A stretch of 64,000 bases of DNA from Caldilineaceae bacterium SB0662_bin_25 (lineage in GTDB: Bacteria; Chloroflexota; Anaerolineae; Caldilineales; Caldilineaceae). The notes beneath the pieces are model-generated. The model was not told where the DNA came from. It worked only from the letters and a program-made list of their open reading frames with translations, and made no database searches. The position numbers and the translations under genes are program-made. Position 1 is the first letter of the stretch; every line of letters begins with the position of its first letter. Shown piece by piece: positions 26,595 through 51,557 of the stretch. The stretch spans positions 6,606 to 70,605 of the forward strand of contig VXOE01000271.1 of assembly GCA_009840225.1 (NCBI GenBank), written 5' to 3'.

Positions 26595-28256
26595 TCAAGC
26601 TTTACGCGGTCCCCACCATTGTGGAGGCATGATCCGATAGCCTTTGTCTATATCCTCGATCACGCACAGGTTGGCCTTTGCCATTTCTTCAAGCTCGCTG
26701 CGGGCACGGGTCAGCTGAACGTAGCGGTTTTCACCTTCTGACACGGTGGGGTGGAACAGCTTGATCAGGTCATTGCCTTCTATAATCGGGTATCCGGCCT
26801 TTCCATTCAATCCCCATGCAGCTGGATTTTTCTCCAAAGACGCGTGTTCGAAGGGAACAAGATCGCACTTGTTGCGCTGGGCGTTTATCCATACAAGATC
26901 GGGGTGTGGCTTGCGGTTAGTTCCTGAGCCGATGAACAGCTTTTTGATAGGATTACCGTACTTGTCCCGGATTATCTCGCCTGCGCTGTTCAATGGGATT
27001 CCCTCTGAGTTGGTCAACAGACTCTTGCGATATGGTCGGATGTAGTTCCCCTTAACCGCTTGATCCCACCAATGATACGCCATGCCGAGGGCAGCGCGGT
27101 ACTGTGGCGCGCTCTGCACTCCAAGCTGGCGCAAGGTTGGCTTGTGGACAAGCGGTCCGTGTCCTGATCCCGGGGGTAAGTTGATCTGGGCGATGGCTTT
27201 GTCATCCAACTTTGCATTAGGGGGAAACATGCCGAGGAAACCGACCGCGCGCCATGCAGTTCGTCCGCCGCCAGGTAATTTAACAATTAAGCGCATCTGG
27301 TCAACCCTGAACATTGCTTGTCGCAAGCGGGGAAACTGGCGGGATCGATCCCATCCATTTGGCCAAAGCCAGTCTCTGATCTCTCGTAAGACAAACTCGA
27401 TCTTCTGTTCTCGGTATCGCATATCGACCGGCACTTGCGTCACGAATTCTACCCATAGCCGGAGTTCAGGCGCCGCGCCGCCGCCGCGCTGATAACTGCT
27501 TCCACCGGCGCCATCGTACAGATAGAGCGGAAGTGCAGAGATAAGGGCCCCCGGGGCGGGGGCAAGGTCGGGGAGAAATGCCTGGGTCTGTTCGTCTATT
27601 TGCGGGCCCAGCTCTGCCGGAGTTGGTATCCACGCCTCCAGGTCAAACAGGGTGCCATTTTCGTGCGGCATTACCTGTATTACGCTTTGGACTCGTGTTG
27701 CGTTCGGTATGATCGCTGTCTCGCGGTCATCGGGTTGTATAGGTGGATAAAGATACCCATCAATGAGAGGTGCAAGGGGGTGATCTATCTCTTCCCGTTG
27801 TGCGGGATCACAGGCTTCCCACAACGCATGCACCGCCTCGAGGCCGCTTACCAAGTGATGTATTGTCTCATTGTTTTTCAGGTAGTCGCGCATAAACTCG
27901 GGATCATGTTTGCACTGATCCATCGTTGCATGCAGGCTCAGAAGGTCGTCGGCCAGATCAACGCCGATCCGCTCTCCCAACTGCCCATGAGATCTGACTG
28001 TGGCCGCGTCCGGGCTGATGATCACTACAGGCAGACCCTGATCGGTCAGCAGCATGCCGGCCCGGCTTAACTTGGCCGCGTCCAACAGCACACCGAAGCG
28101 GTCGGCGTAGGTCGCTATGCTTTCGATCATCCAGTTTTCCGGCAGAGCGGCGGCTATTTCCTCCGGCGTCGGGAGCTGGCTATTTTCTGACAGGCCGATT
28201 TCGTCCGCGCAGGTAGTCACCGCCTGTATCCATCGGTTCTCTGTCGTTGTCATCAT
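26595..28256 (-). CDS. Hypothetical 553-aa protein; positional candidate replication initiator
   Basis: Long ORF overlapping the upstream ATPase gene by 4 nt and adjacent to the iterons. No motif recognised, so the functional call rests on context only. Confidence 0.4.
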   Translation of the reverse strand: MMTTTENRWIQAVTTCADEIGLSENSQLPTPEEIAAALPENWMIESIATYADRFGVLLDAAKLSRAGMLLTDQGLPVVIISPDAATVRSHGQLGERIGVDLADDLLSLHATMDQCKHDPEFMRDYLKNNETIHHLVSGLEAVHALWEACDPAQREEIDHPLAPLIDGYLYPPIQPDDRETAIIPNATRVQSVIQVMPHENGTLFDLEAWIPTPAELGPQIDEQTQAFLPDLAPAPGALISALPLYLYDGAGGSSYQRGGGAAPELRLWVEFVTQVPVDMRYREQKIEFVLREIRDWLWPNGWDRSRQFPRLRQAMFRVDQMRLIVKLPGGGRTAWRAVGFLGMFPPNAKLDDKAIAQINLPPGSGHGPLVHKPTLRQLGVQSAPQYRAALGMAYHWWDQAVKGNYIRPYRKSLLTNSEGIPLNSAGEIIRDKYGNPIKKLFIGSGTNRKPHPDLVWINAQRNKCDLVPFEHASLEKNPAAWGLNGKAGYPIIEGNDLIKLFHPTVSEGENRYVQLTRARSELEEMAKANLCVIEDIDKGYRIMPPQWWGPRKA

Positions 28257-29407
28257 TTGGCTCCCAGGTTCATCCTCTTCAACAGTTCTTCCTGCTGTTT
28301 CGTCCGGTCAACTTTGCCTTTGTTAGCGAGCTGTGATTTGCCTGTCCCGTTGCCGTTGTTGTGTGGTGTTATCTGGGTGTCGGCTTCTGCCCACAACCAG
28401 CCTGTATTTTCGTTGCGGACGAGCCGGATTTCGTCCGGCTTCTTGGCGTAGGATGTCTTTTCGCATTTGAGGTACTCGCCCTCGTCGTTGGTAGCAAGCT
28501 CCCAGCGCCACCGGCTGGCGCTGTGCCAGTCGGTTGACCCGCTGTAGCTGTTCGTTTTCTTAGGCGGGTGCGCGATCAGCATAACGGCGCAGTCGACCTG
28601 GCGCCCCCATGAATCGAAGGAAGCCATGAACTCGCGCACTGCGGAGCGGTCGTTTTCGTTAGCACCGTAGGCGCCGGCGAGGGAATCGATGATCAGCAGG
28701 TCGGCCTTGAGGCCCTCGGCGCTAGCGCGCAGCTCCTCTCCGGTGGCTAATAGTGCGGCGCGGGATCGGGTGGATCCGCCTTCCGGTACGCCCCATATCG
28801 GTCCCGTACCTGCGAGATCTAGCACATGGCATTTGTCCATGGCCGCGGCTTTTTCGGGGCCTATGCGCCGCACAAATTCGGTTGGTTCATCCTCCCATGT
28901 AGCGTACAGGACGGTGCCGCTGCCTTCAACGGCCGGCATTCGAGGCTTTGTGATGTGGCTTGGGGTTAGCCAACAGCCGCCTTCGGTAGTGATGGCTTCT
29001 GCCAGCTGCAGGGCAAGAAATGATTTGCCGCGGCCGCCTTCGCCGGTCAACATACCGACGCGTCCGCGCGGTAACCAGTTGGGAATGAGCCACTGACGCT
29101 TCTCCGGCGGGCCCAGCGTTGCCAGGGGGACGGGCTGGGGATGGAGCAGAATTTTCTTGAGTTTTCTGGCTATCTCGTCGGGCGGTAAAGCCGACAACTC
29201 GTCAAGGGTAGGCTGCCATACGGAGGCCTGGACAGGGGCGTTATTTTCGAGGCGTGCGATCAGGGCTTCGATTGCGCGCCTGGTGTCAGGTGTCGGGTCG
29301 GCATGGTGCGCGAGCACGGCGTCCATGACTTGTTTGTCCATGCGGCCGGCCTGGGCTGCCTGGTTGAATTGCTCGTGGGCGGTTAGTTGTCCGTTCTGGT
29401 TGTTCAC
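28253..29407 (-). CDS. RecA-fold AAA_25/RepA-like ATPase (replicative helicase-like)
   Basis: Walker A GMLTGEGGRGKSFLALQLA, Walker B DLLIIDSLAGAYG, then VMLIAHPPKK. It overlaps both neighbouring genes by 4 nt. Confidence 0.7.
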   Translation of the reverse strand: MNNQNGQLTAHEQFNQAAQAGRMDKQVMDAVLAHHADPTPDTRRAIEALIARLENNAPVQASVWQPTLDELSALPPDEIARKLKKILLHPQPVPLATLGPPEKRQWLIPNWLPRGRVGMLTGEGGRGKSFLALQLAEAITTEGGCWLTPSHITKPRMPAVEGSGTVLYATWEDEPTEFVRRIGPEKAAAMDKCHVLDLAGTGPIWGVPEGGSTRSRAALLATGEELRASAEGLKADLLIIDSLAGAYGANENDRSAVREFMASFDSWGRQVDCAVMLIAHPPKKTNSYSGSTDWHSASRWRWELATNDEGEYLKCEKTSYAKKPDEIRLVRNENTGWLWAEADTQITPHNNGNGTGKSQLANKGKVDRTKQQEELLKRMNLGAK

Positions 29408-30537
29408 TCGGCAATCTCCTTGGCGAATCGGATTCTGGCGTGGATGGTGCGGGGGTTGAGGTCGGCGGCGTCTCCTTTGTTGGGCAGGCTCATGGTGTCT
29501 ACCAGCAATAGGCGGCGCGCGAGCGGCGCCAGGCGCCGGGCTGCGTGAACAGCCGCTTCGATGCCGGCGACGTCGGCGTCAGGCCATAGGGTGATTTCCC
29601 TGCCGTCGAACTGAGTGAAGTCGCTGACGTGAAAGCCGGCGGTGTCCCCTACACTGTAGACGGCGTGACTGCCATCGATTCCGGCACTTACAGCAGCGGC
29701 GGCGGCCTTCTCGCCTTCCACGAGCAGGACGTGCGGGCCATCGCGCGGCTGGCCGCGGCGAGGGTGATTCCAGGATAGAGGCTGCCGTCCTCTGACGCTG
29801 GCACCCTTCTGGCCGTTCCAGAAAATGCGCTTGTCCGGGTCGATGCGTGTGCGCGGCCGGGCGCGGCCGTCTGCGAGGATATAGACGGCGTCCTGGCGCC
29901 ACTGCCGGCCCTTGGCGGAGACTTGGGCAGCGACGTGCTTGTGCAGCTGGTCGTAGCTGGCGGTGCACTGGCACCGCAGGGAAAGGCCTGCATAGGGGAA
30001 CGGGTGATCTGTCAGTGTCCACGCGATCAGCGCGTCGGGCTGCCGGCACAGCGGGCAAGGGCTTGCGTGGGAGCGTCCGCCAGCGTCGTCCTGGGGAAGC
30101 TGGTGTGCGCCCCATTGCGGGACGATGACCGCGTTCCGGGGGCACTGTGGCGCTGATCGTGTCGTGGCCGGTGTGGACCGCTTGGGGGCGGCAGATCGGG
30201 TCGTTGCTCCACCTGGAGGCTGGCCCGTGCGTCGTGCTTCCCAGCAGGCGCGACATCTGCACAGATGCAGACCGGTCGCCTTTTGCAGAGTGTGACGGAT
30301 GGCATCGTACTCTGCCGGCGTGCTGGGGCTGCATTTGAAGCAAAACACGTGCAGCGATGCGCCACTCTTCTCCGGGTCGCTGAAGAGCAGCGAACCTGAA
30401 TTGGGTTCGTCCCCGCTGCCGTGGCAGTAGCCGCGGGTGCGGTAGTGGTCGCCTTCGCGCCGTGTGCCTGGGAGACGGGCCGCGACTTCGGCGGCGGTGG
30501 CGAGTGATATGCGATTGTGTGTGCTGTGTGTTAGCAT
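29404..30537 (-). CDS. Zn-finger + Toprim primase-like protein
   Basis: N-terminal Cys/His clusters (CHGSGDE...CFKC). Toprim-like VLLVEGEKAAAAAVSAGI and ITLWPDADVAG. Confidence 0.6.
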   Translation of the reverse strand: MLTHSTHNRISLATAAEVAARLPGTRREGDHYRTRGYCHGSGDEPNSGSLLFSDPEKSGASLHVFCFKCSPSTPAEYDAIRHTLQKATGLHLCRCRACWEARRTGQPPGGATTRSAAPKRSTPATTRSAPQCPRNAVIVPQWGAHQLPQDDAGGRSHASPCPLCRQPDALIAWTLTDHPFPYAGLSLRCQCTASYDQLHKHVAAQVSAKGRQWRQDAVYILADGRARPRTRIDPDKRIFWNGQKGASVRGRQPLSWNHPRRGQPRDGPHVLLVEGEKAAAAAVSAGIDGSHAVYSVGDTAGFHVSDFTQFDGREITLWPDADVAGIEAAVHAARRLAPLARRLLLVDTMSLPNKGDAADLNPRTIHARIRFAKEIAE

Positions 30538-30758
30538 GTGGGCGAGGCTCCTTTGTTGCGAGGGTCTCAGTGGTAGTGGCCCCGATTGACGGATCGGGGC
30601 CGTCCTCTTTTATTGGATCCCTACTCTCTTTGCGATTTTGGACAGGGCTTGCCTACTGAACGCGGCGCCGCGGCGGGTGTGTACGCCGGCGTGAGCAAGG
30701 ATGTCGATGCCGGGCTGCTCGCTGACGCGGATGTATCCCGCGACCTGTCCCCGTTTTC

Positions 30759-30968
30759 TTATTGCCTGGTCTGCTCCTTCTCAACCTGCGCGACGGCCTG
30801 CAAAACAGACTCTCTTACGAATTCGGTGAATTTCTGCTGGCGGAACATTGCTGCCTCGATGATGCGCTGTTTATCGCTGGCTGTTACGCCAATGGAGACA
30901 TGGGCGGTCTTTTTGAGCCCCTGGGCTTTTCTGACTCTGGGGTTGGTTTTCGCTTTCGTGTCCGGCAT
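30759..30968 (-). CDS. Small RHH/DUF1778-like DNA-binding protein
   Basis: AAGGAG lies 7 nt before the ATG at 30968. HVSIGVTASDKQRIIEAAMFRQQKFTEFVRESVLQAV resembles ribbon-helix-helix antitoxin/repressor proteins. Confidence 0.5.
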   Translation of the reverse strand: MPDTKAKTNPRVRKAQGLKKTAHVSIGVTASDKQRIIEAAMFRQQKFTEFVRESVLQAVAQVEKEQTRQ

Positions 30969-31092
30969 GGGTCGCTCCTTTCGGGTGTTTCGTTGCCTGG
31001 GCGGCATTCTTATTGTACCATGAAACAGCGCATAAAAAAGTAGCTTTTTGCTAGTTTTATTGCAGAATTATGTGATGAGGTCGGAGGGAAGC

Positions 31093-31353
31093 ATGAGCAA
31101 CATTTGGCAAGTGCAGGAGGCGAGGGCGCGCTTCAGCGAGCTGCTGGAGGCCAGTCATGCAGAAGGCCCGCAGATTGTCACTAAGCACGGGAAAGAAACC
31201 GCTGTGCTGGTGCCGATTGAACAGTGGCGCAGACTGGAAAGACTGGCGAAACCGAGCCTGAAGGCGTTTCTGCTGGCCCCAGAGCCGCGTACAGAGGCGT
31301 TAACCCCGCCGAGAAGGAAGCTGCGACTGCGTCCGGCTCCAGATGCAGCGTAG
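31093..31353 (+). CDS. Phd/YefM-VapB-type antitoxin (apparently orphan)
   Basis: MSNIWQVQEARARFSELLEASHAEGPQIVTKHGKETAVLVPIEQWRRLE is a classic prevent-host-death antitoxin N-terminus. No intact toxin ORF follows. Confidence 0.7.
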   Translation: MSNIWQVQEARARFSELLEASHAEGPQIVTKHGKETAVLVPIEQWRRLERLAKPSLKAFLLAPEPRTEALTPPRRKLRLRPAPDAA

Positions 31354-31439: not shown

Positions 31440-31877
31440 ATGAAGATTAACACCGACCATCTGAATCGCTGTGTCAGTACGCTCAGAGTTGCCTGGGAAG
31501 GACTGCAGCAGTGTGAACCGGGCGATGTGTTGTATGAGATCTACCGTGCGGCCTGTGTGAAGGAGTTTGAACTCGTGCTGGAGCAGGGCGACCGATTGCT
31601 GAAGAGGCGGCTGCGTCCTTACTTTGCAAGCACCCGGCAGGCGGACCAGCTTTACTTCAACGATGTCTTCCGTTACGCCGCCAAACATTGCCTGATCGGC
31701 GACGAAGCGTGTGAACGCTGGCTGGAATACCGCGTCGCACGCAATGACACGGCGCATGAATACGGGGGGAATTTTGCTGAGAGGACGCTGGAACTGCTGC
31801 CCCAGTTCATTGTCGACGCGGAGGCGTTAGCCGGTGTGATCGAAGGGGGGGCGGGATGCGTGACAGGCTGCATCTGA
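31440..31877 (+). CDS. HEPN-type nucleotidyltransferase substrate-binding protein (HI0074 family)
   Basis: 145 aa with the R-x4-H motif (VARNDTAHEY) and the overall HI0074-like pattern. Overlaps the following MNT gene. Confidence 0.75.
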   Translation: MKINTDHLNRCVSTLRVAWEGLQQCEPGDVLYEIYRAACVKEFELVLEQGDRLLKRRLRPYFASTRQADQLYFNDVFRYAAKHCLIGDEACERWLEYRVARNDTAHEYGGNFAERTLELLPQFIVDAEALAGVIEGGAGCVTGCI

Positions 31878-32212
31878 AGGTGAGACATCGCCGCATGTTG
31901 GAAGTGATTCTGCGCGAACATGTGCCCGGTGTTGAGGTGTGGGCCTACGGCAGCCGGGTCAGCGGTCACAGCCATGGCGGCAGTGATCTGGACCTTGTCC
32001 TGCGAGCGTCCGGCTTGGAGGCGATTCCGATTGGTCAGCTTGTCGACCTGGAGGAAGCTCTGCGGCTGTCTACGATTCCGTTTCTGGTGGAGGCGCGGGA
32101 CTGGGCGCGCCTACCGGAGAGTTTTCAGCGCGAAATCGGGCGAGCTTACGTCGTGCTGGTGGAAGAGCGGTGTGGGCCGCCGCGGCAGGCGTTTGAATCA
32201 GGGGATGACTGA
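31856..32212 (+). CDS. Minimal nucleotidyltransferase (MNT) partner
   Basis: YGSRVSGHSHGGSDLDLVL carries the GS...DxD polymerase-beta-type NTase motif. 118 aa. Confidence 0.75.
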   Translation: MRDRLHLKVRHRRMLEVILREHVPGVEVWAYGSRVSGHSHGGSDLDLVLRASGLEAIPIGQLVDLEEALRLSTIPFLVEARDWARLPESFQREIGRAYVVLVEERCGPPRQAFESGDD

Positions 32213-32400
32213 TGATATACAGCGATGAAGAGATCTTGCGCCGTTTGCGGCTCGGCGAGGACAGCGCTTGGGAGTTCAAACAGATCGAATTCAGCGGCGA
32301 CCAGACGGTAAGCCCGCGTCGTCATTACCGTCCGCCATGCCGGCCAGCCCGGCGGGGGTTCAGTCATCTTCAACGAGGGGACCGGCCAGATTCCAGGGGT
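32212..32400 (+). pseudogene. N-terminal AlbA_2/Schlafen-like DNA-binding domain fragment (frameshifted, truncated)
   Basis: EEILRRLRLGEDSAWEFKQIEFSGDQTVSPRR, then a shift to a frame reading ...GGGSVIFNEGTGQIPGV. It is cut off by the next gene. Confidence 0.35.
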
Positions 32401-32449
32401 GTCGGGGCGGTTGAATCCGATCTATGATCCCGTTTCCGGAGGAGAGTGC

Positions 32450-34087
32450 ATGAAGATTCACTGGAACGACTTCGAACCTCAAGGATACGAGGAAATGGTT
32501 TCAGTCTTGCTCAGCCGGCTACATCCAAACGCCCAGCGAATCGATGGCAAGGGCGGTGACGGTGGTCGGGACGTGCAGATTGTTGACGGACAAGACGATT
32601 CGATCATCCACGTTTTTGAGTTGAAGTCCTTCACCGGCCGGATGGATCCGGGACGACGCAGTCAAGTGAAAGGATCTCTCAAACGGGCGGCGTCCCTTGG
32701 ACCAGCACGGTGGACACTCGTCGTTCCCATAGATCCCACTCCTGGCGAGGACAGGTGGTTTCGCAAGCTCAGCAAGGAATACTCCTTCCCGATAGAGTGG
32801 TGCGGAAAGACATGGCTTGACGAGAAGATGTCGGCGTTTCCGGACATTCGGCGATACTTCCTGGAAGGGGCAAGCGATGAGGTGGTTCGGTTGCTCCGAG
32901 AACTTCACAAAGAGCAGGCGATCATCACGGATGTCCCTGACGCAATGGAGCGATTACGGACGCTCCACGAGCGCCTGAATGAGATTGATCCCCACTACAG
33001 ATATGAGCTATCCACAGGAAAAGATGCGGCTGATGTCAGGCCAACGGACGTAGTCTTCTCAGTTGGATTTTGTGACATGAGGGTTGATGTCTATTCGAAG
33101 TACTTGGGTGCTACTGAGGATCGACCTGTCACAGTGACTGTCAAGATTCTCGTGGATTCCGACGACGAAGTGGTGCAGGACGCTCTCAACTATGGATTGG
33201 AGGCGACCATTCCACCCCACAAGGTCGCCGGTGTCACGGTTGATGCGCCGTTCGGACTCGGAGGTGACTTCACAGAAACGGAATTCATCCTGATTCCGAT
33301 CAATAACCTAGACGACCCTGTCACCTTCTTATTCGACATCATGGACGGAGACAAGATTCTGGCCAGTTTGCCGGTACATCTCACAGAACGGACAAGTGGC
33401 CTAAGAGGAGCCACCTTAACTGGAGCCGATAGCACTGGGTGGCTGCAAGCGCGCATCAAGGTGAACGTAGAAACCATGGGCCTTGATGCGAAGTTCTGGT
33501 TGACCCCCCAGTCCACCATGCCAGAGGCTCTGTTGCCACTCTGCCGATGGGTAGACGCATGTAAGCCGCCCCATCATCTTCGGTTCCGTTGGCAAGGCGG
33601 ATTAGAACCGCACACTGAGATACGAGAGTCCTTCTTGGCAGATGACAGCCTCAGCAGGATTGTTGAGGCACTCGCTCATTTGCAGGAGCGCTGCGGCATT
33701 CGCTGGGAGATGTCTCCTTCACTTACTCCCGAGGAAGACCAACAGATACTGGCAGCTGCGATCATGCTAAAGGAGGGGACCATTGACTTCACGTGGGAAT
33801 CCTGGAACCTTCGCTTGGACCCTTCGGAACCAGCGCTCAAGGAACTGATGGGTGGCTCTTCGCTCGCCTTTCTCACCAGACAAGACGTGCCGATCGAATT
33901 AGAGGGGATGACTGTTGCAATAGTACGGATCCAAACCCACCTTGAGTCCGCCCGTCTCGCTAATCTCGATGCCGTCGAGCTAGCCCTCAAGTCTGGATCA
34001 GTTCCACACCTGAATCTTGTACCGGGAGAAAGCGACAAGGGGCAACGCGCCGCGGCGTTATTGCCAGCACCTTCAGAGCACCCATGA
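32450..34087 (+). CDS. Mrr-cat/PD-(D/E)xK-like N-terminal nuclease domain fused to an unassigned ~390-aa region
   Basis: GGAGGAG RBS. N-terminus WNDFEPQGYEEMVSVLLSRL...RIDGKGGDGGRDVQIV...IHVFELKSF, with the D...ExK pattern of Mrr-type restriction endonuclease folds. No motif is recognisable in the remainder. Confidence 0.6.
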   Translation: MKIHWNDFEPQGYEEMVSVLLSRLHPNAQRIDGKGGDGGRDVQIVDGQDDSIIHVFELKSFTGRMDPGRRSQVKGSLKRAASLGPARWTLVVPIDPTPGEDRWFRKLSKEYSFPIEWCGKTWLDEKMSAFPDIRRYFLEGASDEVVRLLRELHKEQAIITDVPDAMERLRTLHERLNEIDPHYRYELSTGKDAADVRPTDVVFSVGFCDMRVDVYSKYLGATEDRPVTVTVKILVDSDDEVVQDALNYGLEATIPPHKVAGVTVDAPFGLGGDFTETEFILIPINNLDDPVTFLFDIMDGDKILASLPVHLTERTSGLRGATLTGADSTGWLQARIKVNVETMGLDAKFWLTPQSTMPEALLPLCRWVDACKPPHHLRFRWQGGLEPHTEIRESFLADDSLSRIVEALAHLQERCGIRWEMSPSLTPEEDQQILAAAIMLKEGTIDFTWESWNLRLDPSEPALKELMGGSSLAFLTRQDVPIELEGMTVAIVRIQTHLESARLANLDAVELALKSGSVPHLNLVPGESDKGQRAAALLPAPSEHP

Positions 34088-34269
34088 CGATGAATCTGGA
34101 TGGTGGGGATTACATACGACCAGGACTGATGCAGGACTACCTCCCCATAGCACCCAAGCCTTGCGTAGGGATGGGCCTTCGCGAGCCCTAAAGGCGCAAG
34201 AGCATGTATGAGTCGCCGTTTTGGTCGGCAGTAGCGGGCGCAAAGCTCGCGAGTCTCTACAGACAAGCT

Positions 34270-35525: not shown

Positions 35526-38500
35526 ATGTTGCATGATACCCGTACGGAGTTGCCCGGCGATTACTGGCAGCGAGTGAAGAGCGTTCGCGAGGTGAGCGGA
35601 TTGACACAGGCGCAGTTTGCCGAGCAGGTTGGCGTTTCGTTTGCCACCGTCAACCGCTGGGAAAACAGGCAGACGCGGCCCAGCACTTTGGCCTGGTCGC
35701 GTATTCTCGACCTTGAGCGGGCCCAGGCATCGCAGGTGATTCCTGAGCCCGCTTCTTTGCAGCAGCCGGCGCCTGTGACGGTTCCGGGCATGGATTTTGC
35801 GGCGGATCCGGAAGCTGTCGCGGCGGTTGTCGAGGCGCACCGTCTTACGTACGGGCATCTTTTCAATTCCGCGTTTGCGATTGAGACGTCGCTGATCGAT
35901 CCGCTGCCGCACCAGCGGATTGCGGTTTACGAGCGCATGCTGAACCAGGCGCCGCTGCGTTTCCTGCTGGCGGATGACGCCGGCGCGGGCAAGACGATTA
36001 TGACGGGGCTGTATGTGCGGGAGATGATCTCACGAAGGCTCATCCGCCGCATTCTGATCGTGCCGCCGGCAGGCCTGGTGGGGAACTGGGAGCGTGAGCT
36101 GCGGACGCTTTTCCGGCTGCAGTTTCGCATTGCCAGCGGGGCGGACGCGCGCGGGGGCAACCCTTTTGCCGGGCCCGAGAGCGACCGCCTGATCGTCAGC
36201 CTCGATACGCTGCGAGGTGAGCGCATGTTCGCGCGCCTCAAAGAGCCTGAGACGGCGCCCTATGATCTGGTGGTCTTCGACGAGGCCCACAAGCTGTCGG
36301 CGCACCGCGAGCAGGACCTGCGGGTGCGCAAGACGGGCCGCTACCGCCTCGCCGAAGCCATCGCCGGCGCAGAGACCGATAGCGAAAAGTGGGCGCTGCC
36401 GTGGTCGGCGCATCATCTGCTGCTGCTCACCGCCACGCCGCACATGGGTAAGGAATATCCCTTCTTTGCTCTGTGGCGCCTGCTGATGCCGGATACGCTC
36501 TCGACCCCGGAAGCGTTTGACGGCTTTTCCCGTGATTCGCGGCGCAGGCATTTCATGCGCCGCACGAAGGAGGAGATGGTCCGCTTTGACGGACAGCCGC
36601 TCTATCCACAGAGAAACTGCGGCACGTTGAGCTATGAACTGACGCAAGGGCCGGGCAGCGAGCAGGAGCTGTACGACGAGACGACGGAGTACATCGCGAC
36701 CTACTACAACAGGGCCAAGATGTTGAACAGGTCGGCGGCGCGCCTGGCGATGAGCGTGTTCCAGCGCCGGCTGGCCAGCTCCACCTATGCGCTGATGCGC
36801 TCGTTCGAGCGGCGGAAAGAGAAGCTGGAGGCCTTGATCGATGATATCAGGAACGACAGGCTGAGAGAAGAGCAGCTGGCGCCGCAACAAGGAGTCCTTG
36901 AAGATATTTTCGAGACGAGGACTTTCGACGAGCTGGATACGGCTGAAGAGGGGGGCGATGCGCAGGAGGATTTTGAGGAAGAGGCCCTGGCGGGGACGGT
37001 GGCGGTCAACCTGGCTGAGCTGGAGGTGGAGCGTCAGCGGGTCGACACGTTGCTTGGCAAGGCGCGCAGGCTCTACGAAGCCGGTGAGGAGTCCAAGTTT
37101 GAGAGGTTGCAGAGTGTACTACGGGACGAGGAAGATGCCGACGAAAAGCTGATACTCTTTACCGAGCATCGCGATACGGCTGAGTTTCTGATTCGCAGGC
37201 TGGAGGGTCTCGGCTTCACCGGCAGGATCGCGCTGATTCACGGCGGGATGCCCTACCAGGAGCGTGAGCGGCAGGTGGAGTTTTTCCGCCGTTCGGCAGC
37301 GGACAACGGGGCCAACTATCTCGTGGCCACCGACGCCGCGGGCGAGGGCATCAATCTCCAGTTCTGCTGGCGGATGGTCAACTACGACATTCCCTGGAAC
37401 CCTGCCCGCCTGGAGCAGCGCATGGGCCGCATCCACCGTTATGGGCAGGAGCGGGATCCGGTTGTCATCGTCAACCTGGTGGCGGGCGCGACACGGGAAG
37501 GCCGGGTGATGAAGAGGCTACTGGAGAAGCTGGAGCTGATCCGGGACCAGCTCGGGTCCGACAAGGTTTTCGATGTCATCGGCCGCCTGTTCGAGGGCGT
37601 TTCGTTCGGCGATTATCTGGCGCAAGCAGCGGCGGGGGAGGAGGGAGAGGTCCTCCGTCAGATAGAAGGAAGCCTGACCAGCGAGCAGGTGATGGCGCTG
37701 GAGGAGAGGGAACGTTCGCTTTACGGGGCGGGGGGCGAGGTGCGCCGCGCCTTGCCCGAACTGCGAAAGCAGACTGGAGAGGAGCATTACCGGCGCCTCA
37801 TACCGGGGTATGTTTATCGTTTTGTCGAAAGGGCGGCGCCGCTGCTCGGCCTGCGGGTAGAAGGGGACCCGGAGGAGGCGTTTGCGCTGGAGGCGACCCG
37901 GCCGCGTGCGCGCGACTTCCTGTTTTCGGCATTGGAAACCTATGCGGCCGGGGCCCGCAACCGTCTGACGGTAGTTAAACCGGATTTTCACGGGGCTGCG
38001 GTGTGGCTGCATCCGGGCGAACCGGTGTTTGACCGCCTGGCGCAGACGGTCATCGTGCGGCACGGCGAACAGGGGCTGCGGGGGGCGGTGTTCGTCGATC
38101 CTTACGCGGAGGAACCGTACCTGGTGCATGCGGCGCTGGTCACTGTAGAGCAGGAGGCGAGTTCAGGGGAGGCTGGCGCGGCCGCGGCCGGCGCAAGGAT
38201 CCTGGAATCGCGGCTGGTGGGGCTGCGTCAGAGTGCGGAGGGAGATATCGAAGAGTGGCCGGTGGAGCGGTTGCTTCTGCTGCGGGGCGCGCCCGGATTT
38301 GCACCGGGCGGGGAGCCGCTGGCCGCGCGGGCGCGCAAGCTGAATCCGGCGGCAGAAGAGTACGTGCGCGCTGATGTTCTTGAGCAGCATGTGCAGGCGC
38401 AGCGGCGGCGTATCCTGGCCGACTTGCCCGACCGCCAGGCGCACGTCAGGCGGGGCTATGGCTTTCAGGCGGCCGAACTGGCGGCGCGGCGTGCCAATCT

Positions 38501-39107
38501 GGTCGCGGACGTGCGGGCCGGGGACGCAGATGCCCAGCGGGAGCTGGCCAGGGTCAAAGCGCGGCAGCGGAGCCTGAATGCGTCGCGGCGGCGGCGTCTG
38601 GCTGAACTGGCGGCAGAGGCGGATCAGGTGCGCGGCGGCGAGGTTGAGTTTATCACGCACGCGCTGGTCGTGCCGGCAAGCGATCCGGAGATTGTCGAGC
38701 AGTTCGACGTGCAGGTGGAGAAGGTGGCGATGGAGGTTGCGACCTCCTTTGAGGAGAGCCGCGGCGCGCGCGTGCAGGATGTTTCGCGACCTTATCTGGC
38801 GCGCCGCGCCGGCCTGCCCGACTGGCCGGGGTTCGACATCCTGTCCGTGAGGCCTGGGGACGAGGCCCGCAGCATCGAGGTCAAGGGCCGGGCCCGGGCG
38901 GGCCCAGTTGAGATGACCGACAACGAATGGGCCAGGGCCTGCAACCTGCGCGACGACTACTGGTTGTACGTTGTTTTTGACTGCGCGACGTCGCACCCGC
39001 GGCTCATCCGCGTGCGTGACCCGTTCGACAAGCTGCTGGCCAACAGTCGCTCGTCGAATTCGGTTACCGTCAACGTTGAGGCGCTCTATGGCGCTGCGGA
39101 AGCGTAA
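35526..39107 (+). CDS. HTH(XRE)-SNF2 helicase-DUF3883 fusion protein
   Basis: N-terminal [30 protein letters not shown]2 motifs [56 protein letters not shown]. C-terminal GFDILSV...IEVKGR...[21 protein letters not shown] is a DUF3883-type nuclease-like fold. Confidence 0.9.
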   Translation: [1193 protein letters not shown]

Positions 39108-39120
39108 TGGGAGGGACAAC

Positions 39121-39456
39121 ATGGCCGCAAGACAGCCGCGTTACAGCAAAGAGGAGTTCGCCCAGCGCGGCCAGGCACTTTACGAGAAGTGCGTGAGGGC
39201 GCAGGTGGAAAGAGGCAACCGCGGGCGGATCGTAGCAGTTGACATCGAGACGGGTGAGTTCGAGGTGGGAGACGATGCGGTAGCCGCCTCCAGCCGGCTC
39301 CTGGCGCGCTGTCCGGATGCGCAGCCGTGGTGTGTGCGCATCGGGTACCGGGCGATGCACCGGTTTGGGCAGTTGCATGGCAGCGGCGCGCGAGGGTTGC
39401 GGGGCGGGTCAACGCCGAGCCACTCTATGCGGCTGCGGAATAGTAGAGGGAGATAA
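39121..39456 (+). CDS. DUF5678-like small protein
   Basis: GRIVAVDIETGEFEVGDDAVAASSRLLARCPDAQPWCVRIGYRAMHRFG parallels 26038-26355. A retropepsin-like gene follows 5 nt downstream. Confidence 0.5.
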   Translation: MAARQPRYSKEEFAQRGQALYEKCVRAQVERGNRGRIVAVDIETGEFEVGDDAVAASSRLLARCPDAQPWCVRIGYRAMHRFGQLHGSGARGLRGGSTPSHSMRLRNSRGR

Positions 39457-39460
39457 AGAA

Positions 39461-39844
39461 ATGGGGGTAACACAAGTAACAGTCCTTATCCGCAATCCGG
39501 CCGAGCCGGACAGAACATGGGAAGGACTATTCCTTGTCGATACCGGCGCGATCGATTCGCTGGTTCCCAGGCCGCAATTGGAGGCCATCGGTCTCAGGCC
39601 CAAGGGGCAGCGTGTATACGGGCTGGCAGACGGCAGCGAAATCCGGCTCGACATCACGACTGCAGACATAGAGTTTATGGGTGAAATCGTCGGTGGGACG
39701 ATTGTGTTTGGCGCGGAAGACGCGGAGCCGCTGCTGGGGGTGACCGCGCTGGAATCGGTGGGCATAGAGGTCGATCCGCGTAATCAGACACTCAAGAGGT
39801 TGCCGACGACGCGACTCAAATTCCTAGGAACTAGCCAGGGTTGA
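39461..39844 (+). CDS. Retropepsin-like (clan AA) aspartyl protease
   Basis: 127 aa with LFLVDTGAIDSLVP (DTGA active-site motif) and C-terminal LLGVTALESVGIEVDP. Confidence 0.6.
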   Translation: MGVTQVTVLIRNPAEPDRTWEGLFLVDTGAIDSLVPRPQLEAIGLRPKGQRVYGLADGSEIRLDITTADIEFMGEIVGGTIVFGAEDAEPLLGVTALESVGIEVDPRNQTLKRLPTTRLKFLGTSQG

Positions 39845-39866
39845 TTGACCTTGTGGAGGTATCGTG

Positions 39867-41222
39867 ATGGAGAACAAACGAGATCACATTTTTTTGAGTT
39901 ACGCTACTGAGGATTGGCCATTTTGTGAGTGGCTCGGCCGCCGGCTCGCTGCGGAAGGGTACGCCATATGGTGCGACCGACTGAAGATGCTGGGGGGAGA
40001 GAATTGGCCTAATGATATTGAGATCGCGATAGCCGAACGAACATTTCGGATGCTTGCACTAATGTCGCGGGCGTCGATGCGCAAGCCCAATCCACAGGGG
40101 GAATGGCAAAAGGCTAGAGCCATGGGGGCTAAGTTAGGAGTTGAAGATTTCCTTATTCCATTAAATGTTGAAGGTCTTCGATCTGATGAGATTATATGGA
40201 ATTTTCAAACAATCAATTACATCAGTTTTTCACATAGTTGGTCCGATGGTCTCGCCGCCGTACTGAAAAAACTCCACTCGGTCTCGGCACCCAGAGTTTT
40301 GAAGGAAGGACGACGGCTCGCAATAGAATCAACTTTCATGAAGACAGCCATCCGCGAAGAATCTGAAATATTGGTGAGCAACTGCTTTGAGATTATTCAG
40401 ATACCTCGCTACTTGCGCATATATAGCGTTAATGCCAGTCCTATCTCCAAGAGTGAGGGACACGAATTGCGAAAGGAGTGGGCATGCAGTGATGTTACGC
40501 CGTCTACAGTATTGGCATTCCATGATCCGCCGACTGACGTTGCTGCGAGGCATAATTTCCAATACGTCAAGCAGGTTGCTTGGCGCGATGCCATTAAAGT
40601 GGATGGCATTGACTCTCGCGACCTTGTGGTCAGGCTTATTCGAAGATGCCTTGATAGACTCATGACAGAATTCGGATTGAAATATTCCGAAGCCAGCGGA
40701 AATTTCTTTCTTCCCCGTGGTCTTCTACATAACGACCGTGTCCCGGTTACCCTTCCGAATGGGAGGAAAAGCTGGTTCTCTGGAGTCGGTGAACGCAAGT
40801 ATTCAACCGCGAAAGGTGGAGAGGTTTACAGATACCATCTGAGCCCTTCGTTTGACATTGTGCGTGAAGATAATGAACCCACTGCGCTGTTTTTGCGAAA
40901 TCGAGTCCATCTGACCGACAGTAACGGTAAGGAACTGGAAAGACGTAAGATTCCATCGCGACGTAAGCATTTGTGCAGAAGCTGGTTCAATCGAGAGTGG
41001 TGTGTTCGAACTCTCGGCATTGCACAAATGCTCGCCAATGATGATATGCATATCCGATTTGGACCAGAGGGAGAGCAGCAGCTTGTCATCGGTGCTGAGC
41101 CAGTTGCAATGGAGGTTTCTCACAGGATCTGTGACGAACTTGTGGGTGAAATCGATGAAAGCTACACGACATGGTATTCGGGAGAAGAAGCAGGATCTGA
41201 TGATTTCAACGAGGAAGAGTGA
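39867..41222 (+). CDS. TIR-APAZ protein (SPARTA-type partner of short pAgo)
   Basis: N-terminal TIR motif IFLSYATEDWPFCEWLGRRLAAEGYAIWCDR. ~450 aa, immediately upstream of a short pAgo. Size, order and N-terminus match the SPARTA architecture. Confidence 0.8.
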   Translation: MENKRDHIFLSYATEDWPFCEWLGRRLAAEGYAIWCDRLKMLGGENWPNDIEIAIAERTFRMLALMSRASMRKPNPQGEWQKARAMGAKLGVEDFLIPLNVEGLRSDEIIWNFQTINYISFSHSWSDGLAAVLKKLHSVSAPRVLKEGRRLAIESTFMKTAIREESEILVSNCFEIIQIPRYLRIYSVNASPISKSEGHELRKEWACSDVTPSTVLAFHDPPTDVAARHNFQYVKQVAWRDAIKVDGIDSRDLVVRLIRRCLDRLMTEFGLKYSEASGNFFLPRGLLHNDRVPVTLPNGRKSWFSGVGERKYSTAKGGEVYRYHLSPSFDIVREDNEPTALFLRNRVHLTDSNGKELERRKIPSRRKHLCRSWFNREWCVRTLGIAQMLANDDMHIRFGPEGEQQLVIGAEPVAMEVSHRICDELVGEIDESYTTWYSGEEAGSDDFNEEE

Positions 41223-41229
41223 AGACGGT

Positions 41230-42735
41230 ATGCAGAGAGAATTAACGCTCCTATCTGAACCGACTCTAGAATTTCGGTACGGCCAGCAATTGTCCGACCC
41301 ACGAGACGGACTCTCACTTTTTGGCCCGTACGATGCAGACTTGCCTAGTCATCCCGGGGCACTGACCTATGGTGTTGTTGGTACATCGGAGGGGTTAGAT
41401 CAATTCGCGGCATGGTCGCGCGCGATGCTCCGATCATGGACGCATGCCCCAAAGGGACGTCACCGCTTGTGGCCCCCATATCCGGGATTCCAAGCGGCGT
41501 TTGCCTGTAACTGGCATAGTGAACCTGCTTGGCGTCGAGTGCTGGACAGTCACACATTGAGCGACTTAGCGCGACGGCATGACCCGTATGAAAGAGTCTA
41601 TTCTGTTGTTGAAGAATATCTTGAGGCCTTCAAAGAACTGGAGAAGCTCGATCAGCGCATCAATGTCATGGTTTGCATAGTGCCTGACGAGATCTATAAG
41701 ACTTGTCGGATCAAGTCGCGTGTGTCGAATCCAACTGGCGAAAACGTTTCAAGCAAGCGAATCAGGGAGCGCAAGAGCGGCCAACTTGATATGTTCTCGA
41801 CGTATGCGCCGGAGCAGTACGAACTCTCACTTGATTTTCGGCGTCAGATCAAGGCGCGGGCGATGGCGTATGGCGTTCCGATTCAGATAATTCGCGAATC
41901 TACTCTGCGGCTAAGTGACGAAACTCCGTTCGGCCAAAGACAGCTAACTCCACTATCCCATCGCATGTGGAACCTAACCAGTGCACTTTACTACAAGGGA
42001 GGGGGTAAACCGTGGCGGCTTGCCACAGCACGGGAAGGTGTGTGCTATATAGGGCTCGCATTTCGACGACGCGATGCCGAAGGCGGACCTCAAACTGCGG
42101 CATGTGCAGCGCAGATGTTCCTTGATGATGGCGATGGCATAGTATTTTTGGGGAATTATGGGCCATGGTACTCGCCCAAGACCAGGCAGTTTAGACTTAC
42201 GGCTGAGGCAGCGCATGATTTGCTGGAAGGAGCCTTGGAGACCTATGCGCAGTTGCACGGAAAGGCATTAACAGAAGTCTTTCTACATTCTCGGTCCGAA
42301 ATCAGCGCCGAAGAATTTGAAGGATACCGCTCTGCCGCACCTGCCAGTATCAAAATTGTCGGTGTTCGAGTGCGGCCTTGGCGTGACGGTCCCAGGCTCT
42401 ACCGGCCAGACAAGTCCTGGCCGGTGATCCGAGGCACATTTTGGCAGCACTCACCTACGAGAGGATATCTCTTCGGTACGGGGTTCAAGCCAAGGCTCGG
42501 CACCTACGACGGATGGGAAACGCCGGTACCTCTTCAAATGGACGTTCAACATGGTGATGCGAATGTGACTGAGGTAGCGCGCGACATCCTCGGATTAACA
42601 AAACTTAATTACAACGGATGTAATGCTGGCGACTCTCAGCCGGTTACAGTCAAGTTTTCTGATGCAGTGGGCGAGATTCTGGTTAGTAACCCGACGGTGA
42701 CTGACCGGCAACCTACGTTCAGGTATTACATCTGA
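41230..42735 (+). CDS. Short prokaryotic Argonaute (MID-PIWI)
   Basis: 501 aa. The N-terminus LSEPTLEFRYGQQLSDPRDGLSLFGPYD...YGVVGTSEGL...WPPYPGFQAAFACNW...VMVCIVPDEIYKTCR and PIWI-type ALYYKGGGKPWRL resemble characterised short pAgos, from memory of MapAgo-like sequences. Confidence 0.8.
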   Translation: MQRELTLLSEPTLEFRYGQQLSDPRDGLSLFGPYDADLPSHPGALTYGVVGTSEGLDQFAAWSRAMLRSWTHAPKGRHRLWPPYPGFQAAFACNWHSEPAWRRVLDSHTLSDLARRHDPYERVYSVVEEYLEAFKELEKLDQRINVMVCIVPDEIYKTCRIKSRVSNPTGENVSSKRIRERKSGQLDMFSTYAPEQYELSLDFRRQIKARAMAYGVPIQIIRESTLRLSDETPFGQRQLTPLSHRMWNLTSALYYKGGGKPWRLATAREGVCYIGLAFRRRDAEGGPQTAACAAQMFLDDGDGIVFLGNYGPWYSPKTRQFRLTAEAAHDLLEGALETYAQLHGKALTEVFLHSRSEISAEEFEGYRSAAPASIKIVGVRVRPWRDGPRLYRPDKSWPVIRGTFWQHSPTRGYLFGTGFKPRLGTYDGWETPVPLQMDVQHGDANVTEVARDILGLTKLNYNGCNAGDSQPVTVKFSDAVGEILVSNPTVTDRQPTFRYYI

Positions 42736-42969
42736 CCAGCTATTCCAGGGACTCACGTTGTCCACGTATCCACCATAGCACATGTGGTCCAGTTTTTGGG
42801 GCCAAGCTCGCAGCGCCTAAGAGAGTTCGCACAAGCCCCATTCCCTGATGGGTATTTCGGTAGCGATCAGACTTCTCTGTGTGGTTACTCTAGATTGGTA
42901 GGAGGATAGTAGCATGGACCCTGTGACATTCTTACAGCACACAGATGGAGGTCGATTGGAAGAGACAAC

Positions 42970-43335
42970 ATGAGCCAACTCGGTTTGCTGACCGGCATTT
43001 ACGCTGATGTCGAGACGTACGGGGCGCTGATAGACAGGGTAATTGACCGCCTGGGGCGGGGGCAGGTTGACCCGACCGAGCCGGACCAGAAGAGGCTGGC
43101 GCAACTTTTTGTTGATGCAAGCGATCAAGGTCTGGCGTCGCAGTCCCTGAAAGCGTTGATGTTGGACAGCCTGCTCAGGACAAGCACTGCTGAACCTATG
43201 GCAGACTTGAAGCTGCTAGGTGAACGTCTTCAGAGCGGTGATGTGGATCATGCGTTTCTGAAGCAGATCGAGGAACTCGCAAGACAGCTGGAACAGAAGC
43301 GGGTGGACATTGCGCGTCAGATACGGGGCTGTTGA
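42970..43335 (+). CDS. Hypothetical 121-aa protein
   Basis: ORF only; predicted helical; no motif recognised. Its stop overlaps an ATG (ATGA at 43333-43337). Confidence 0.4.
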   Translation: MSQLGLLTGIYADVETYGALIDRVIDRLGRGQVDPTEPDQKRLAQLFVDASDQGLASQSLKALMLDSLLRTSTAEPMADLKLLGERLQSGDVDHAFLKQIEELARQLEQKRVDIARQIRGC

Positions 43336-43457
43336 TGACCATGAGACTCTTGATAGGGCTATTGGGGAATCTACTGGAATGGGCGCCGAAAGGTTATGAG
43401 GCTTGGAAGGTAAAGCAGCTTGAGACTTTACGTGCGATCATTGACGTGGCGTTTTGA
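43335..43457 (+). CDS. Possible 40-aa peptide
   Basis: ATG overlaps the preceding stop. Reads MTMRLLIGLLGNLLEWAPKGYEAWKVKQLETLRAIIDVAF. Below the ORF-track size threshold, with no further support. Confidence 0.2.
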   Translation: MTMRLLIGLLGNLLEWAPKGYEAWKVKQLETLRAIIDVAF

Positions 43458-43571
43458 ACGGCGCGCGCCCAAGGCAGCGGCACTCGAGTCCGTGGTGACT
43501 GAAGCTAGTCGGCGTAGTCAGATGCGTAAGAGATTGTCGGCAACTAGACATAAGGGGTATAGAGAGAGGGT

Positions 43572-45299: not shown

Positions 45300-45334
45300 C
45301 GCAAGGGTGAGCAAACTTAGAGAGGCAATCAAGA

Positions 45335-49500: not shown

Positions 49501-49578
49501 ATCCGCCATTACTTCTGGGCGTTCACAGCAGACGGGATGTGGGCCCTGTCCTACCATGTAGCAAATAAGGACTGCAAG

Positions 49579-50859: not shown

Positions 50860-50863
50860 GCTG

Positions 50864-51514: not shown

Positions 51515-51557
51515 GAGTCGATGCTGAAACCATATTCCGGATAGCGACCGGCGAGAC

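What the first reader, a model, noticed from the sequence alone, without database searches (positions are those of the whole stretch)
32450..34087. Mrr-cat-like nuclease head fused to a ~390-aa domain of unknown type
The N-terminal ~150 aa have the restriction-endonuclease-fold signature (..RIDGKGGDGGRDVQIV..IHVFELKSF..). The remaining two-thirds show no motif I can recognise: no P-loop, no helicase, methylase or repeat signatures. The gene has its own strong RBS and lies at the entrance of the defence island, with a convergent HNH endonuclease downstream. The unknown region could be a sensor or specificity domain of a single-protein defence nuclease.
Basis: partly seen in the sequence, partly recalled or inferred. 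Interest (0 to 1): 0.65.

Follow-up and report, generated by a model that had tools for sequence, protein, structure and literature searches.

The report
Solitary Mrr-type nuclease with unknown tail
This is an intact gene for a DNA-cutting enzyme of the Mrr restriction type joined to a large, well-conserved 365-residue region that matches no known family or solved structure; it belongs to a big uncharacterised family that sits alone among mobile and anti-phage genes, so it is a reasonable but untested candidate for a one-protein defence system.

Summary
Window 32450-34087 (+) is an intact 545-aa gene with a GGAGGAG ribosome-binding site.

- **Nuclease head (residues 1-~140):** It has an Mrr-type PD-(D/E)xK fold. 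Best structural matches are the Avs4 nuclease domain, YaeQ and viral restriction endonucleases. D37, D41, (E/Q)57 and K59 are kept in 52 homologues of 28-45% identity. The motif aligns with the E. coli Mrr GDGGID (D203) motif.
- **C-terminal region (residues 180-545):** It folds confidently (pLDDT 87.6) into three acidic α/β lobes. It hits nothing in Pfam, NCBIfam, PADLOC, PHROGs, PDB sequences or PDB folds.
- **Family:** It is large, with 2018 representatives at 50% identity, and the two-part architecture is fixed. It occurs in Chloroflexota and Actinomycetota and on actinobacterial plasmids, but was not found in phages.
- **Context:** No neighbour is conserved across 51 loci. Neighbours are transposases, toxin-antitoxin pairs and defence genes. 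In the window the gene lies 1.4 kb upstream of an Hma system with an embedded short-pAgo system, an OLD nuclease and HEC-01.

Best reading: a stand-alone, horizontally moving conflict nuclease whose C-terminal region senses or regulates. The defence role is inferred, not shown. It is a new variant of a known kind, of moderate interest.

The parts
32438..32444 (+). Ribosome-binding site GGAGGAG, 5 nt upstream of the ATG
   Evidence: Sequence read. The AGGAGAGTGC-ATG stretch is conserved in close homologues while the sequence further upstream differs.
32450..34087 (+). Complete coding sequence, 545 aa plus stop codon
   Evidence: ORF. The identical protein is called on 6 public contigs. Full-length homologues appear.
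32450..32869 (+). N-terminal Mrr-type PD-(D/E)xK nuclease domain (residues 1 to ~140), with an α-β-β-β-α-β core
   Evidence: Secondary structure of the model. Foldseek matches: Avs4 8dgf_B prob 1.0, YaeQ 7tcb prob 0.99, viral 'restriction endonuclease' and RPB5 N-domains prob 0.99-1.0. PADLOC PDC-M58A at E=7e-7 over residues 3-141. hhalign to EcoKMrr residues 165-208.
32543..32572 (+). First catalytic motif D32-G-x-G-G-D37-G-G-R-D41. D41 aligns with Mrr D203.
   Evidence: Column counts in 52 homologues: D32 49/52, G33 52/52, G36 52/52, D37 52/52, G39 52/52, D41 51/52. Alignment to Mrr.
32618..32626 (+). Second catalytic motif E57-L-K59, of the (E/Q)xK type
   Evidence: E57 is E in 37 and Q in 15 of 52 homologues; K59 is kept in 52/52.
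32870..32986 (+). Two-helix linker (residues 141-179). It is acidic and has low model confidence.
   Evidence: Helices 141-155 and 162-179, pLDDT 52-63. Charge.
32987..34084 (+). C-terminal region of unknown type (residues 180-545). It forms three α/β lobes: about 180-290, 291-398 and 399-540.
   Evidence: The cropped model has pLDDT 87.6 and pTM 0.68. No PDB fold match: best E=0.019, prob 0.16, TM<=0.13. No family or PDB-sequence hit. No internal repeat. Lobes 1 and 3 are acidic.
32212..32427 (+). Remnant of an upstream AlbA_2/HATPase_c_4 gene. Only the first 37 codons (32212-32322) are homologous; the rest was deleted, taking the native 5' region of the nuclease gene with it.
   Evidence: 32 of 37 residues identical to L010:6016-7770, which carries SLFN_AlbA_2 and HATPase_c_4.
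34088..34215 (+). 3' flank that travels with the gene in close homologues. Function unknown.
   Evidence: blastn homology to L010 and L012 runs to 34206-34215, and to L004 and L011 only to 34113-34124.

Best explanation
The gene encodes a stand-alone, horizontally transferred conflict (defence-type) DNA endonuclease.

The N-terminal 140 residues form a metal-dependent Mrr-type PD-(D/E)xK active site. D41 is the catalytic aspartate and E57-x-K59 is the second motif. The 365-residue C-terminal region, made of three mostly acidic α/β lobes joined to the head by a two-helix linker, is a sensing or regulatory module rather than a second enzyme.

The proposed mechanism is that the C-terminal region keeps the nuclease inactive or monomeric. 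A cue from an invading element then lets two or more heads come together and cut DNA. That cue is most likely a foreign protein or small ligand, and less likely a DNA modification.

Shown here: the fold, the conserved catalytic residues, the fixed two-part architecture, the solitary and mobile genomic habit, and the lack of any known relative for the C-terminal region. Inferred: nuclease activity, autoinhibition, the trigger, and the defence role.
For: - **Fold and motif:**
- **PADLOC candidate-defence model** PDC-M58A hits the head.
- **PGAP annotation:** PGAP names a plasmid homologue 'restriction endonuclease'.
- **Known use of the head:** the same kind of head is the effector domain of Avs4 (top fold hit) and of STAND defence proteins (PMC9122126).
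- **Fixed architecture:** nearly all of the top 150 representatives at 50% identity share the two-part layout.
- **Conservation pattern:** the head is more conserved than the tail, with mean top-residue frequency 0.60 against 0.36-0.40. The invariant tail residues are mostly G, P and W, with no catalytic-looking constellation.
- **No conserved neighbour** in 51 loci.
- **Neighbour content:** DDE transposases, ApeA-HEPN, NYN, AlbA_2, pAgo-SIR2, Avs2, type IIG R-M, BrxH and DpdF, and hicBA.
- **Window context:** the gene sits between a HEPN/MNT pair and an Hma island with an embedded TIR-APAZ/short-pAgo system, an OLD nuclease and HEC-01.
- **Horizontal transfer:** copies about 90% identical in DNA occur in Caldilineaceae and Dehalococcoidia, with homology limited to the gene and short flanks.
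- **Replicons:** found on 22 actinobacterial plasmids and in no phage record.
- **Decay:** decayed or interrupted copies exist, for example L048.
Against: - There is no experimental evidence of any kind.
- Defence-island association was seen but not tested against a background rate. Some homologues sit among housekeeping genes.
- The window protein itself does not score against Pfam Mrr_cat.
- The fold matches of the head have weak E-values (3.6e-3 at best), although probabilities are high.
- The window copy has lost its native upstream region, so its expression is uncertain.
- On actinobacterial plasmids the gene recurs next to conjugation genes. This could point to a transfer-related role instead.
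Confidence: 0.55

Rival explanations
1. It is a Type IV (modification-dependent) restriction enzyme. The C-terminal region would read a modified base or backbone in foreign DNA and position the Mrr-type head to cut. No methyltransferase partner would be needed.
For: - The catalytic domain is of the EcoKMrr type.
- The gene is solitary, with no cognate methylase and no conserved partner.
- It transfers horizontally and is plasmid-borne, like many Type IV enzymes.
- One homologue lies next to an Ssp-like phosphorothioation cluster (L007).
- PGAP labels one homologue a restriction endonuclease.
Against: - The C-terminal region shows no similarity to Mrr_N, SRA, PUA/EVE, winged-helix or any other known DNA-modification reader, in sequence or in fold.
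- Two of its three lobes are strongly acidic: net -13 and -9 in the window protein, family medians -7 and -9, pI about 4.6. That is unusual for a DNA-recognition module.
Confidence: 0.22
2. It is a plasmid or mobile-element function rather than host defence. It could be a nuclease acting in conjugative DNA processing or establishment, in exclusion of competing plasmids, or as an addiction module expressed from the transfer region.
For: - In 5 of 10 actinobacterial plasmids inspected, the homologue lies between or beside the relaxase and the DUF4913/type IV coupling protein genes. These are Rhodococcus rhodochrous, Hoyosella, R. fascians, Pseudarthrobacter and Brevibacterium.
- In the window it lies 1.4 kb from a NikA-like relaxosome gene and a primase/AAA_25 module.
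- Transposases and toxin-antitoxin pairs are its commonest neighbours.
Against: - Most chromosomal copies in Chloroflexota have no conjugation genes nearby.
- The other five plasmids show unrelated contexts.
- No known relaxosome or T4SS component has this architecture.
- The region between relaxase and coupling protein may simply be a cargo hotspot.
Confidence: 0.13
3. It is a degenerate or non-catalytic relic, or a housekeeping repair nuclease with no role in conflict.
For: - The window copy has lost its own 5' region.
- Some family members are truncated or interrupted.
Against: - The ORF is intact and strongly conserved over its full length across hundreds of clusters, including the catalytic residues.
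- The distribution is patchy and mobile, not that of a housekeeping gene.
Confidence: 0.05

Closest known systems
EcoKMrr (Type IV restriction enzyme; Pfam Mrr_cat PF04471)
   Same: Same kind of catalytic domain. The helix followed by the G-D-G-G-x-D strand aligns with Mrr 165-208, with D41 opposite Mrr D203. It is followed by an (E/Q)xK motif, as in Mrr's Q-A-K. The gene is also solitary, with no methylase partner.
   Different: The domain order is reversed: the nuclease comes first. There is no Mrr_N winged-helix domain. A 365-residue unrelated C-terminal region is present. The Pfam Mrr_cat HMM does not score the window protein, and only 1 of 52 family members reaches even E<0.01.
Avs4 (antiviral STAND NTPase with an N-terminal Mrr-like nuclease; PDB 8dgf)
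   Same: It is the best structural match of the head plus linker: 183 aligned columns, probability 1.0. In both proteins an N-terminal Mrr-like effector precedes a large C-terminal non-catalytic region.
   Different: The window protein has no P-loop/STAND ATPase and no TPR sensor. It is 545 aa against about 1500 aa. The sequence identity is only 14%.
PADLOC candidate PDC-M58A
   Same: It is the only defence-library model that hits, at E=7e-7. It covers residues 3-141 against nearly the whole 154-position profile.
   Different: PDC-M58A is a small protein belonging to a multi-gene candidate that is itself unvalidated. Nothing in PADLOC matches the C-terminal region.
Shedu (SduA) single-protein nucleases
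   Same: The logic is the same: one polypeptide, a PD-(D/E)xK nuclease core, and a variable non-catalytic sensor region that controls activation by oligomerisation (10.1101/2023.08.10.552793).
   Different: The nuclease family differs (DUF4263 at the C-terminus). There is no Pfam or PADLOC hit to Shedu models.
Cap4 (CBASS nuclease-SAVED effector; PDB 6wan)
   Same: An N-terminal PD-(D/E)xK nuclease is followed by a ligand-sensing α/β domain. A weak Foldseek hit was found at rank 50, prob 0.51.
   Different: The cropped C-terminal model gives no SAVED or CARF match. No cyclase gene occurs in any neighbourhood.

Membership tests
PD-(D/E)xK superfamily, Mrr_cat type (PF04471) | Score above the Pfam gathering threshold for PF04471 | tested here: not met
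   No Pfam hit at E<=10 for the window protein. Only 1 of 52 family members hits Mrr_cat at E<0.01, and 2 other distant members hit below threshold.
PD-(D/E)xK superfamily, Mrr_cat type (PF04471) | α-β-β-β-α-β restriction-endonuclease core fold | tested here: met
   The model has H10-24, E28-31, E42-46, E52-58, H67-83 and E88-91. Foldseek matches Avs4, YaeQ, viral restriction endonucleases and RPB5 N-domains at prob 0.94-1.0, though E-values are only 4e-3 to 4e-2.
PD-(D/E)xK superfamily, Mrr_cat type (PF04471) | Conserved catalytic D ... (D/E/Q)-x-K | tested here: met
   D37 52/52, D41 51/52, position 57 E37/Q15, K59 52/52 in homologues of 28-45% identity. D41 aligns with Mrr D203.
Type IV modification-dependent restriction enzymes | A recognisable modified-DNA reader domain (Mrr_N, SRA, PUA/EVE, sulfur-binding domain and the like) | tested here: not met
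   No sequence or fold match of residues 180-545 to any such domain. Lobes 1 and 3 are acidic.
Type IV modification-dependent restriction enzymes | Acts alone, without a cognate methyltransferase | tested here: met
   No gene family is shared by more than 6 of 51 neighbourhoods, and none is a methylase.
Type IV modification-dependent restriction enzymes | Cleavage depends on DNA modification | not testable with these tools
   This needs biochemistry.
Avs / STAND antiviral NTPases | Central STAND P-loop NTPase and a C-terminal repeat sensor | tested here: not met
   No AAA, NACHT or TPR hit in Pfam or PADLOC. The protein is only 545 aa.
PADLOC PDC-M58 candidate system | Presence of the partner gene(s) of PDC-M58A | not testable with these tools
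   Only the M58A model hits, on residues 3-141. The composition of PDC-M58 is not available here, and no paper in the library mentions it.
CBASS Cap4-type effectors | SAVED/CARF ligand-binding domain and a neighbouring CD-NTase | tested here: not met
   No SAVED or CARF structure appears among the top matches of the cropped model. No cyclase gene occurs in the neighbourhoods.
Shedu | DUF4263 nuclease domain | tested here: not met
   No Pfam or PADLOC Shedu hit.

The most novel reading that the evidence does not exclude
The 365-residue C-terminal region is a previously undescribed three-lobed sensor fold. The whole protein founds a new, widespread single-gene immune system of Chloroflexota and Actinomycetota. 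An Mrr-type nuclease is switched on directly, without any NTPase or second messenger, when the acidic sensor binds a phage or plasmid product.
Probability: 0.35. Interest if true: 0.65.

Novelty: new variant of a known kind. Interest (0 to 1): 0.5.

Why it matters
If the reading is right, it adds a large, unannotated family to the catalogue of one-protein nuclease defences. The family has at least 505 clusters at 50% identity with E<1e-30. It occurs in sponge-associated and environmental Chloroflexota, in Streptomyces and Rhodococcus, and on their plasmids.

It would supply a new sensor module whose confident predicted structure has no solved relative. Such modules are what determine which invader is recognised. 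A sensor with no ATPase and no signalling partner would also be a simple system to dissect and possibly to re-engineer.

The recurrent position beside conjugation genes on actinobacterial plasmids raises a testable question. These nucleases may serve plasmids, through exclusion or establishment, as much as they serve hosts.

Tried and rejected
- **Known family for the C-terminal region:** Pfam, NCBIfam, PADLOC and PHROGs on the window protein. Pfam on 62 further family members. PDB sequence searches with the single sequence and with two profiles. Foldseek against PDB and BFVD with the full model, and against PDB with a cropped pLDDT-87.6 model. Nothing above noise. The recurrent sliding-clamp, LolA and DnaK-SBD hits have TM<=0.13 and rmsd >17 Å, so I rejected them.
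- **Internal duplication of the three lobes:** hhalign of lobe against lobe gave probabilities <1%. Rejected.
- **Conserved partner gene or operon:** all-against-all clustering of 828 neighbouring ORFs from 51 loci. None found.
- **Integron-cassette idea:** this was prompted by the sharp homology boundary 11 bp before the ATG. The boundary has no GTTRRRY core site. The sharp edge in the window is instead explained by a deletion that removed an AlbA_2 gene. Other close copies share up to 500 bp upstream, which encodes a hicBA pair. Rejected.
- **Phage origin:** no hit in 50,697 phage records or in IMG/VR contigs.
- **Informative fusions:** a few longer relatives carry Crp-like, MNT or second Mrr_cat segments. 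They are isolated cases, possibly gene-calling fusions, and I did not use them.
- **Literature:** no paper mentions PDC-M58. Searches for Mrr-like single-gene systems gave only general context.
- **Promoter and terminator scan around the gene:** nothing above shuffled expectation.

Full report
**The gene**

The ORF listing shows one long ORF at 32399-34087 on the + strand. GGAGGAG lies at 32438-32444, 5 nt before it. All homologues start M-x-I-x-W at this codon. DNA similarity to the closest copies elsewhere begins at 32439/32440. The product is 545 aa. The identical protein is called on six public contigs, including NCBI GCA_009835815.1 contig VXWQ01000492.1. No source gives it a name, and one 69%-identical relative is labelled 'hypothetical protein, Chloroflexi bacterium'.

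**The head**

The full-length AlphaFold model came from a 41-sequence alignment and has mean pLDDT 77. It gives H10-24, E28-31, E42-46, E52-58, H67-83 and E88-91, which is the α-β-β-β-α-β restriction-endonuclease core.

- Foldseek against the PDB puts the Mrr-like nuclease domain of Avs4 first (8dgf_B, 183 columns, probability 1.0, E=3.6e-3). The PD-(D/E)xK protein YaeQ follows.
- Against viral models it finds 'restriction endonuclease' proteins and RPB5 N-terminal domains at probabilities of 0.94-1.0.
- The E-values are weak, so fold evidence alone is modest. It agrees, however, with three independent lines.
  - PADLOC model PDC-M58A covers residues 3-141 at E=7e-7.
  - hhalign places residues 7-46 on EcoKMrr 165-208, so that G-D37-G-G-R-D41 matches Mrr G-D199-G-G-I-D203. 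The pairwise E is 0.009 and the probability is low because the template is a single sequence.
  - NCBI's pipeline names a plasmid homologue 'restriction endonuclease'.
- In 52 homologues only 28-45% identical to the window protein, D37 is kept in 52, D41 in 51 and K59 in 52. Position 57 is E in 37 and Q in 15. The E/Q alternation is what the Mrr family shows, as in Mrr's Q-A-K (my knowledge of the family).
- The Pfam Mrr_cat HMM itself does not score the window protein and barely touches the family.

I therefore file the head as an Mrr-type member of the PD-(D/E)xK superfamily by fold and motif, but not as a Pfam PF04471 member.

**The tail**

Residues 141-179 are two low-confidence helices. 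I re-modelled residues 180-545 alone from a 29-sequence alignment reaching 20% identity (A4). The result has mean pLDDT 87.6 and pTM 0.68.

- It has three α/β lobes, at roughly 180-290, 291-398 and 399-540. The lobes are not repeats of one another.
- This confident model has no meaningful PDB neighbour. The best hit has E=0.019, probability 0.16, TM<=0.13 and rmsd above 20 Å.
- Sequence and profile searches of Pfam, NCBIfam, PADLOC, PHROGs and PDB chains are empty.
- Invariant positions are mostly G, P and W, with one aspartate (D327) in a glycine-rich hairpin. This looks structural or ligand-binding rather than catalytic.
- Lobes 1 and 3 are strongly acidic. Their net charges are -13 and -9 here, and the family medians are -7 and -9.
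- The head is more conserved than the tail, at 0.60 against 0.36-0.40.

**The family and where it lives**

The word-indexed search found 560 proteins, all about 540 aa long with no Pfam domain. The exhaustive search found 2018 representatives at 50% identity with E<=1e-3, of which 505 have E<1e-30. Nearly all of the top 150 cover both head and tail.

- In species genomes the family occurs in Chloroflexota (Dehalococcoidia, Caldilineaceae, Limnocylindrales). At 26-38% identity it also occurs in Actinomycetota, including Streptomyces, Hamadaea, Luedemannella, Trebonia and Acidimicrobiia.
- tblastn finds it on 22 actinobacterial plasmids.
- It finds it on none of 50,697 phage records. A scan of IMG/VR found no relative.
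- Clustering 828 neighbouring ORFs from 51 loci shows no conserved partner. The commonest neighbour family occurs in only 6 loci.
- ORFs within about 1.2 kb are most often DDE transposases. Next come ApeA-type HEPN proteins, NYN, AlbA_2/HATPase_c_4, pAgo with SIR2, Avs2, type IIG R-M, BrxH and DpdF. Ordinary metabolic genes are also present.
- Copies about 90% identical in DNA occur in Caldilineaceae and Dehalococcoidia. Homology is limited to the gene, at most 500 bp upstream and 26-130 bp downstream.
- Where it is present, the 500 bp upstream encodes a hicB-hicA pair.
- One copy (L048) is broken into three pieces by insertions.

**The window context**

Upstream on the minus strand lie an unknown 553-aa gene, an AAA_25 ATPase, a primase-like gene and a NikA-like gene. 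On the plus strand come a Phd antitoxin, a HEPN/MNT pair and a 71-codon ORF. The first 37 codons of that ORF are 86% identical to a full AlbA_2/HATPase_c_4 gene, which in L010 sits just upstream of the L010 homologue. The window therefore carries a deletion. It removed most of the AlbA_2 gene and the native 5' region of the nuclease gene, so expression now probably depends on read-through. No promoter-like site was found.

Downstream are the convergent HNH_3 gene and then a well-marked defence island. It holds HmaA at 35526-39107, a TIR-APAZ gene with a short pAgo, an OLD-family nuclease, DUF2806, HmaB, HEC-01A/B and HmaC.

**Interpretation**

The anatomy is a conserved effector head joined to a less conserved, non-catalytic, partner-less tail, carried singly by mobile DNA among toxin-antitoxin and defence genes. 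This anatomy matches the logic of single-protein nuclease defences such as Shedu (10.1101/2023.08.10.552793). It also matches the use of Mrr_cat as the N-terminal effector of STAND defence proteins (PMC9122126; Avs4).

- **Best reading.** I rate a stand-alone conflict nuclease with a sensing or regulatory tail at 0.55.
- **Type IV restriction enzyme.** This is the main rival (0.22). The solitary habit and the Mrr chemistry favour it. The acidic tail and the lack of any known modification reader count against it.
- **Plasmid-function role.** This rival (0.13) rests on an observation I did not expect. On 5 of 10 actinobacterial plasmids examined, the gene lies between or beside the relaxase and the DUF4913/coupling-protein genes. 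The other five plasmids show other contexts.

None of these readings can be settled without experiments.

**Verdict**

The feature is a new variant of a known kind: an Mrr-type nuclease with an undescribed sensor-sized domain, belonging to a large uncharacterised family. I score interest as moderate (0.5). The nuclease head is ordinary. The value lies in the confident, matchless C-terminal structure and in the size of the family.

Noticed in passing
window 35526-55136: An Hma system: HmaA 35526-39107, HmaB 46330-49500, HmaC 51663-55136. Other systems are embedded between its genes. They are a TIR-APAZ gene (39864-41222) with a short pAgo (about 41240-42735), an OLD-family ATPase-Toprim nuclease (43572-45299), DUF2806 (45335-46333), and HEC-01A/B (49537-50859 and 50522-51514).
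   Followed up: partly
window 32212-32427: A 71-codon ORF whose first 37 codons are 86% identical to the start of a 585-aa AlbA_2/HATPase_c_4 gene, which lies just upstream of the nuclease homologue in L010. The rest has been deleted in the window. The deletion also removed the native 5' region of the nuclease gene.
   Followed up: yes
L004, L011 and L012, about 7500-8000: The 500 bp upstream of the homologue in three Dehalococcoidia loci encodes a hicB-hicA toxin-antitoxin pair, about 73 and 77 aa. In L004 the pair is disrupted. It travels with the nuclease gene in these copies.
   Followed up: partly
L056, L057, L058, L060, L064 (actinobacterial plasmids): On 5 of 10 plasmids inspected, the homologue lies between or next to the MobF/MOBP relaxase and the DUF4913 plus type IV coupling protein genes. 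This recurrent position may mark a cargo hotspot or leading region, or it may mark a transfer-related role.
   Followed up: partly
L048 1480-1614, 5510-5847, 8020-9159: A Dehalococcoidia copy of the gene is split into three pieces by two insertions of about 3.9 kb and 2.2 kb. It is a pseudogene.
   Followed up: no
window 26595-31353: A mobile-element module on the minus strand: an unknown 553-aa gene, an AAA_25 ATPase (28253-29407), a primase-like 377-aa gene (29404-30537) and a NikA-like relaxosome protein (30759-31007). A Phd/YefM antitoxin follows at 31048-31353 with no obvious toxin, and then a HEPN/MNT pair at 31440-32212. No tRNA gene occurs anywhere in the window.
   Followed up: partly
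window 55856-59464 (-): A 1202-aa ORF with no Pfam hit lies in a segment of markedly lower G+C, 45-49% against about 58% elsewhere. It sits at the far end of the Hma island.
   Followed up: no
L004/L005 6993-7493 and 9984-10484: Two 166-aa DDE_Tnp_1 ORFs in the same orientation flank the homologue, with its hicBA remnant, in one Dehalococcoidia genome. This may be a composite transposon.
   Followed up: no
L007 10934-17410: An Ssp-like phosphorothioation cluster lies 1.3 kb from a homologue, separated from it by an IS element. The cluster comprises a cysteine desulfurase, DUF4007, a 1133-aa protein and a PAPS-reductase-like gene.
   Followed up: no
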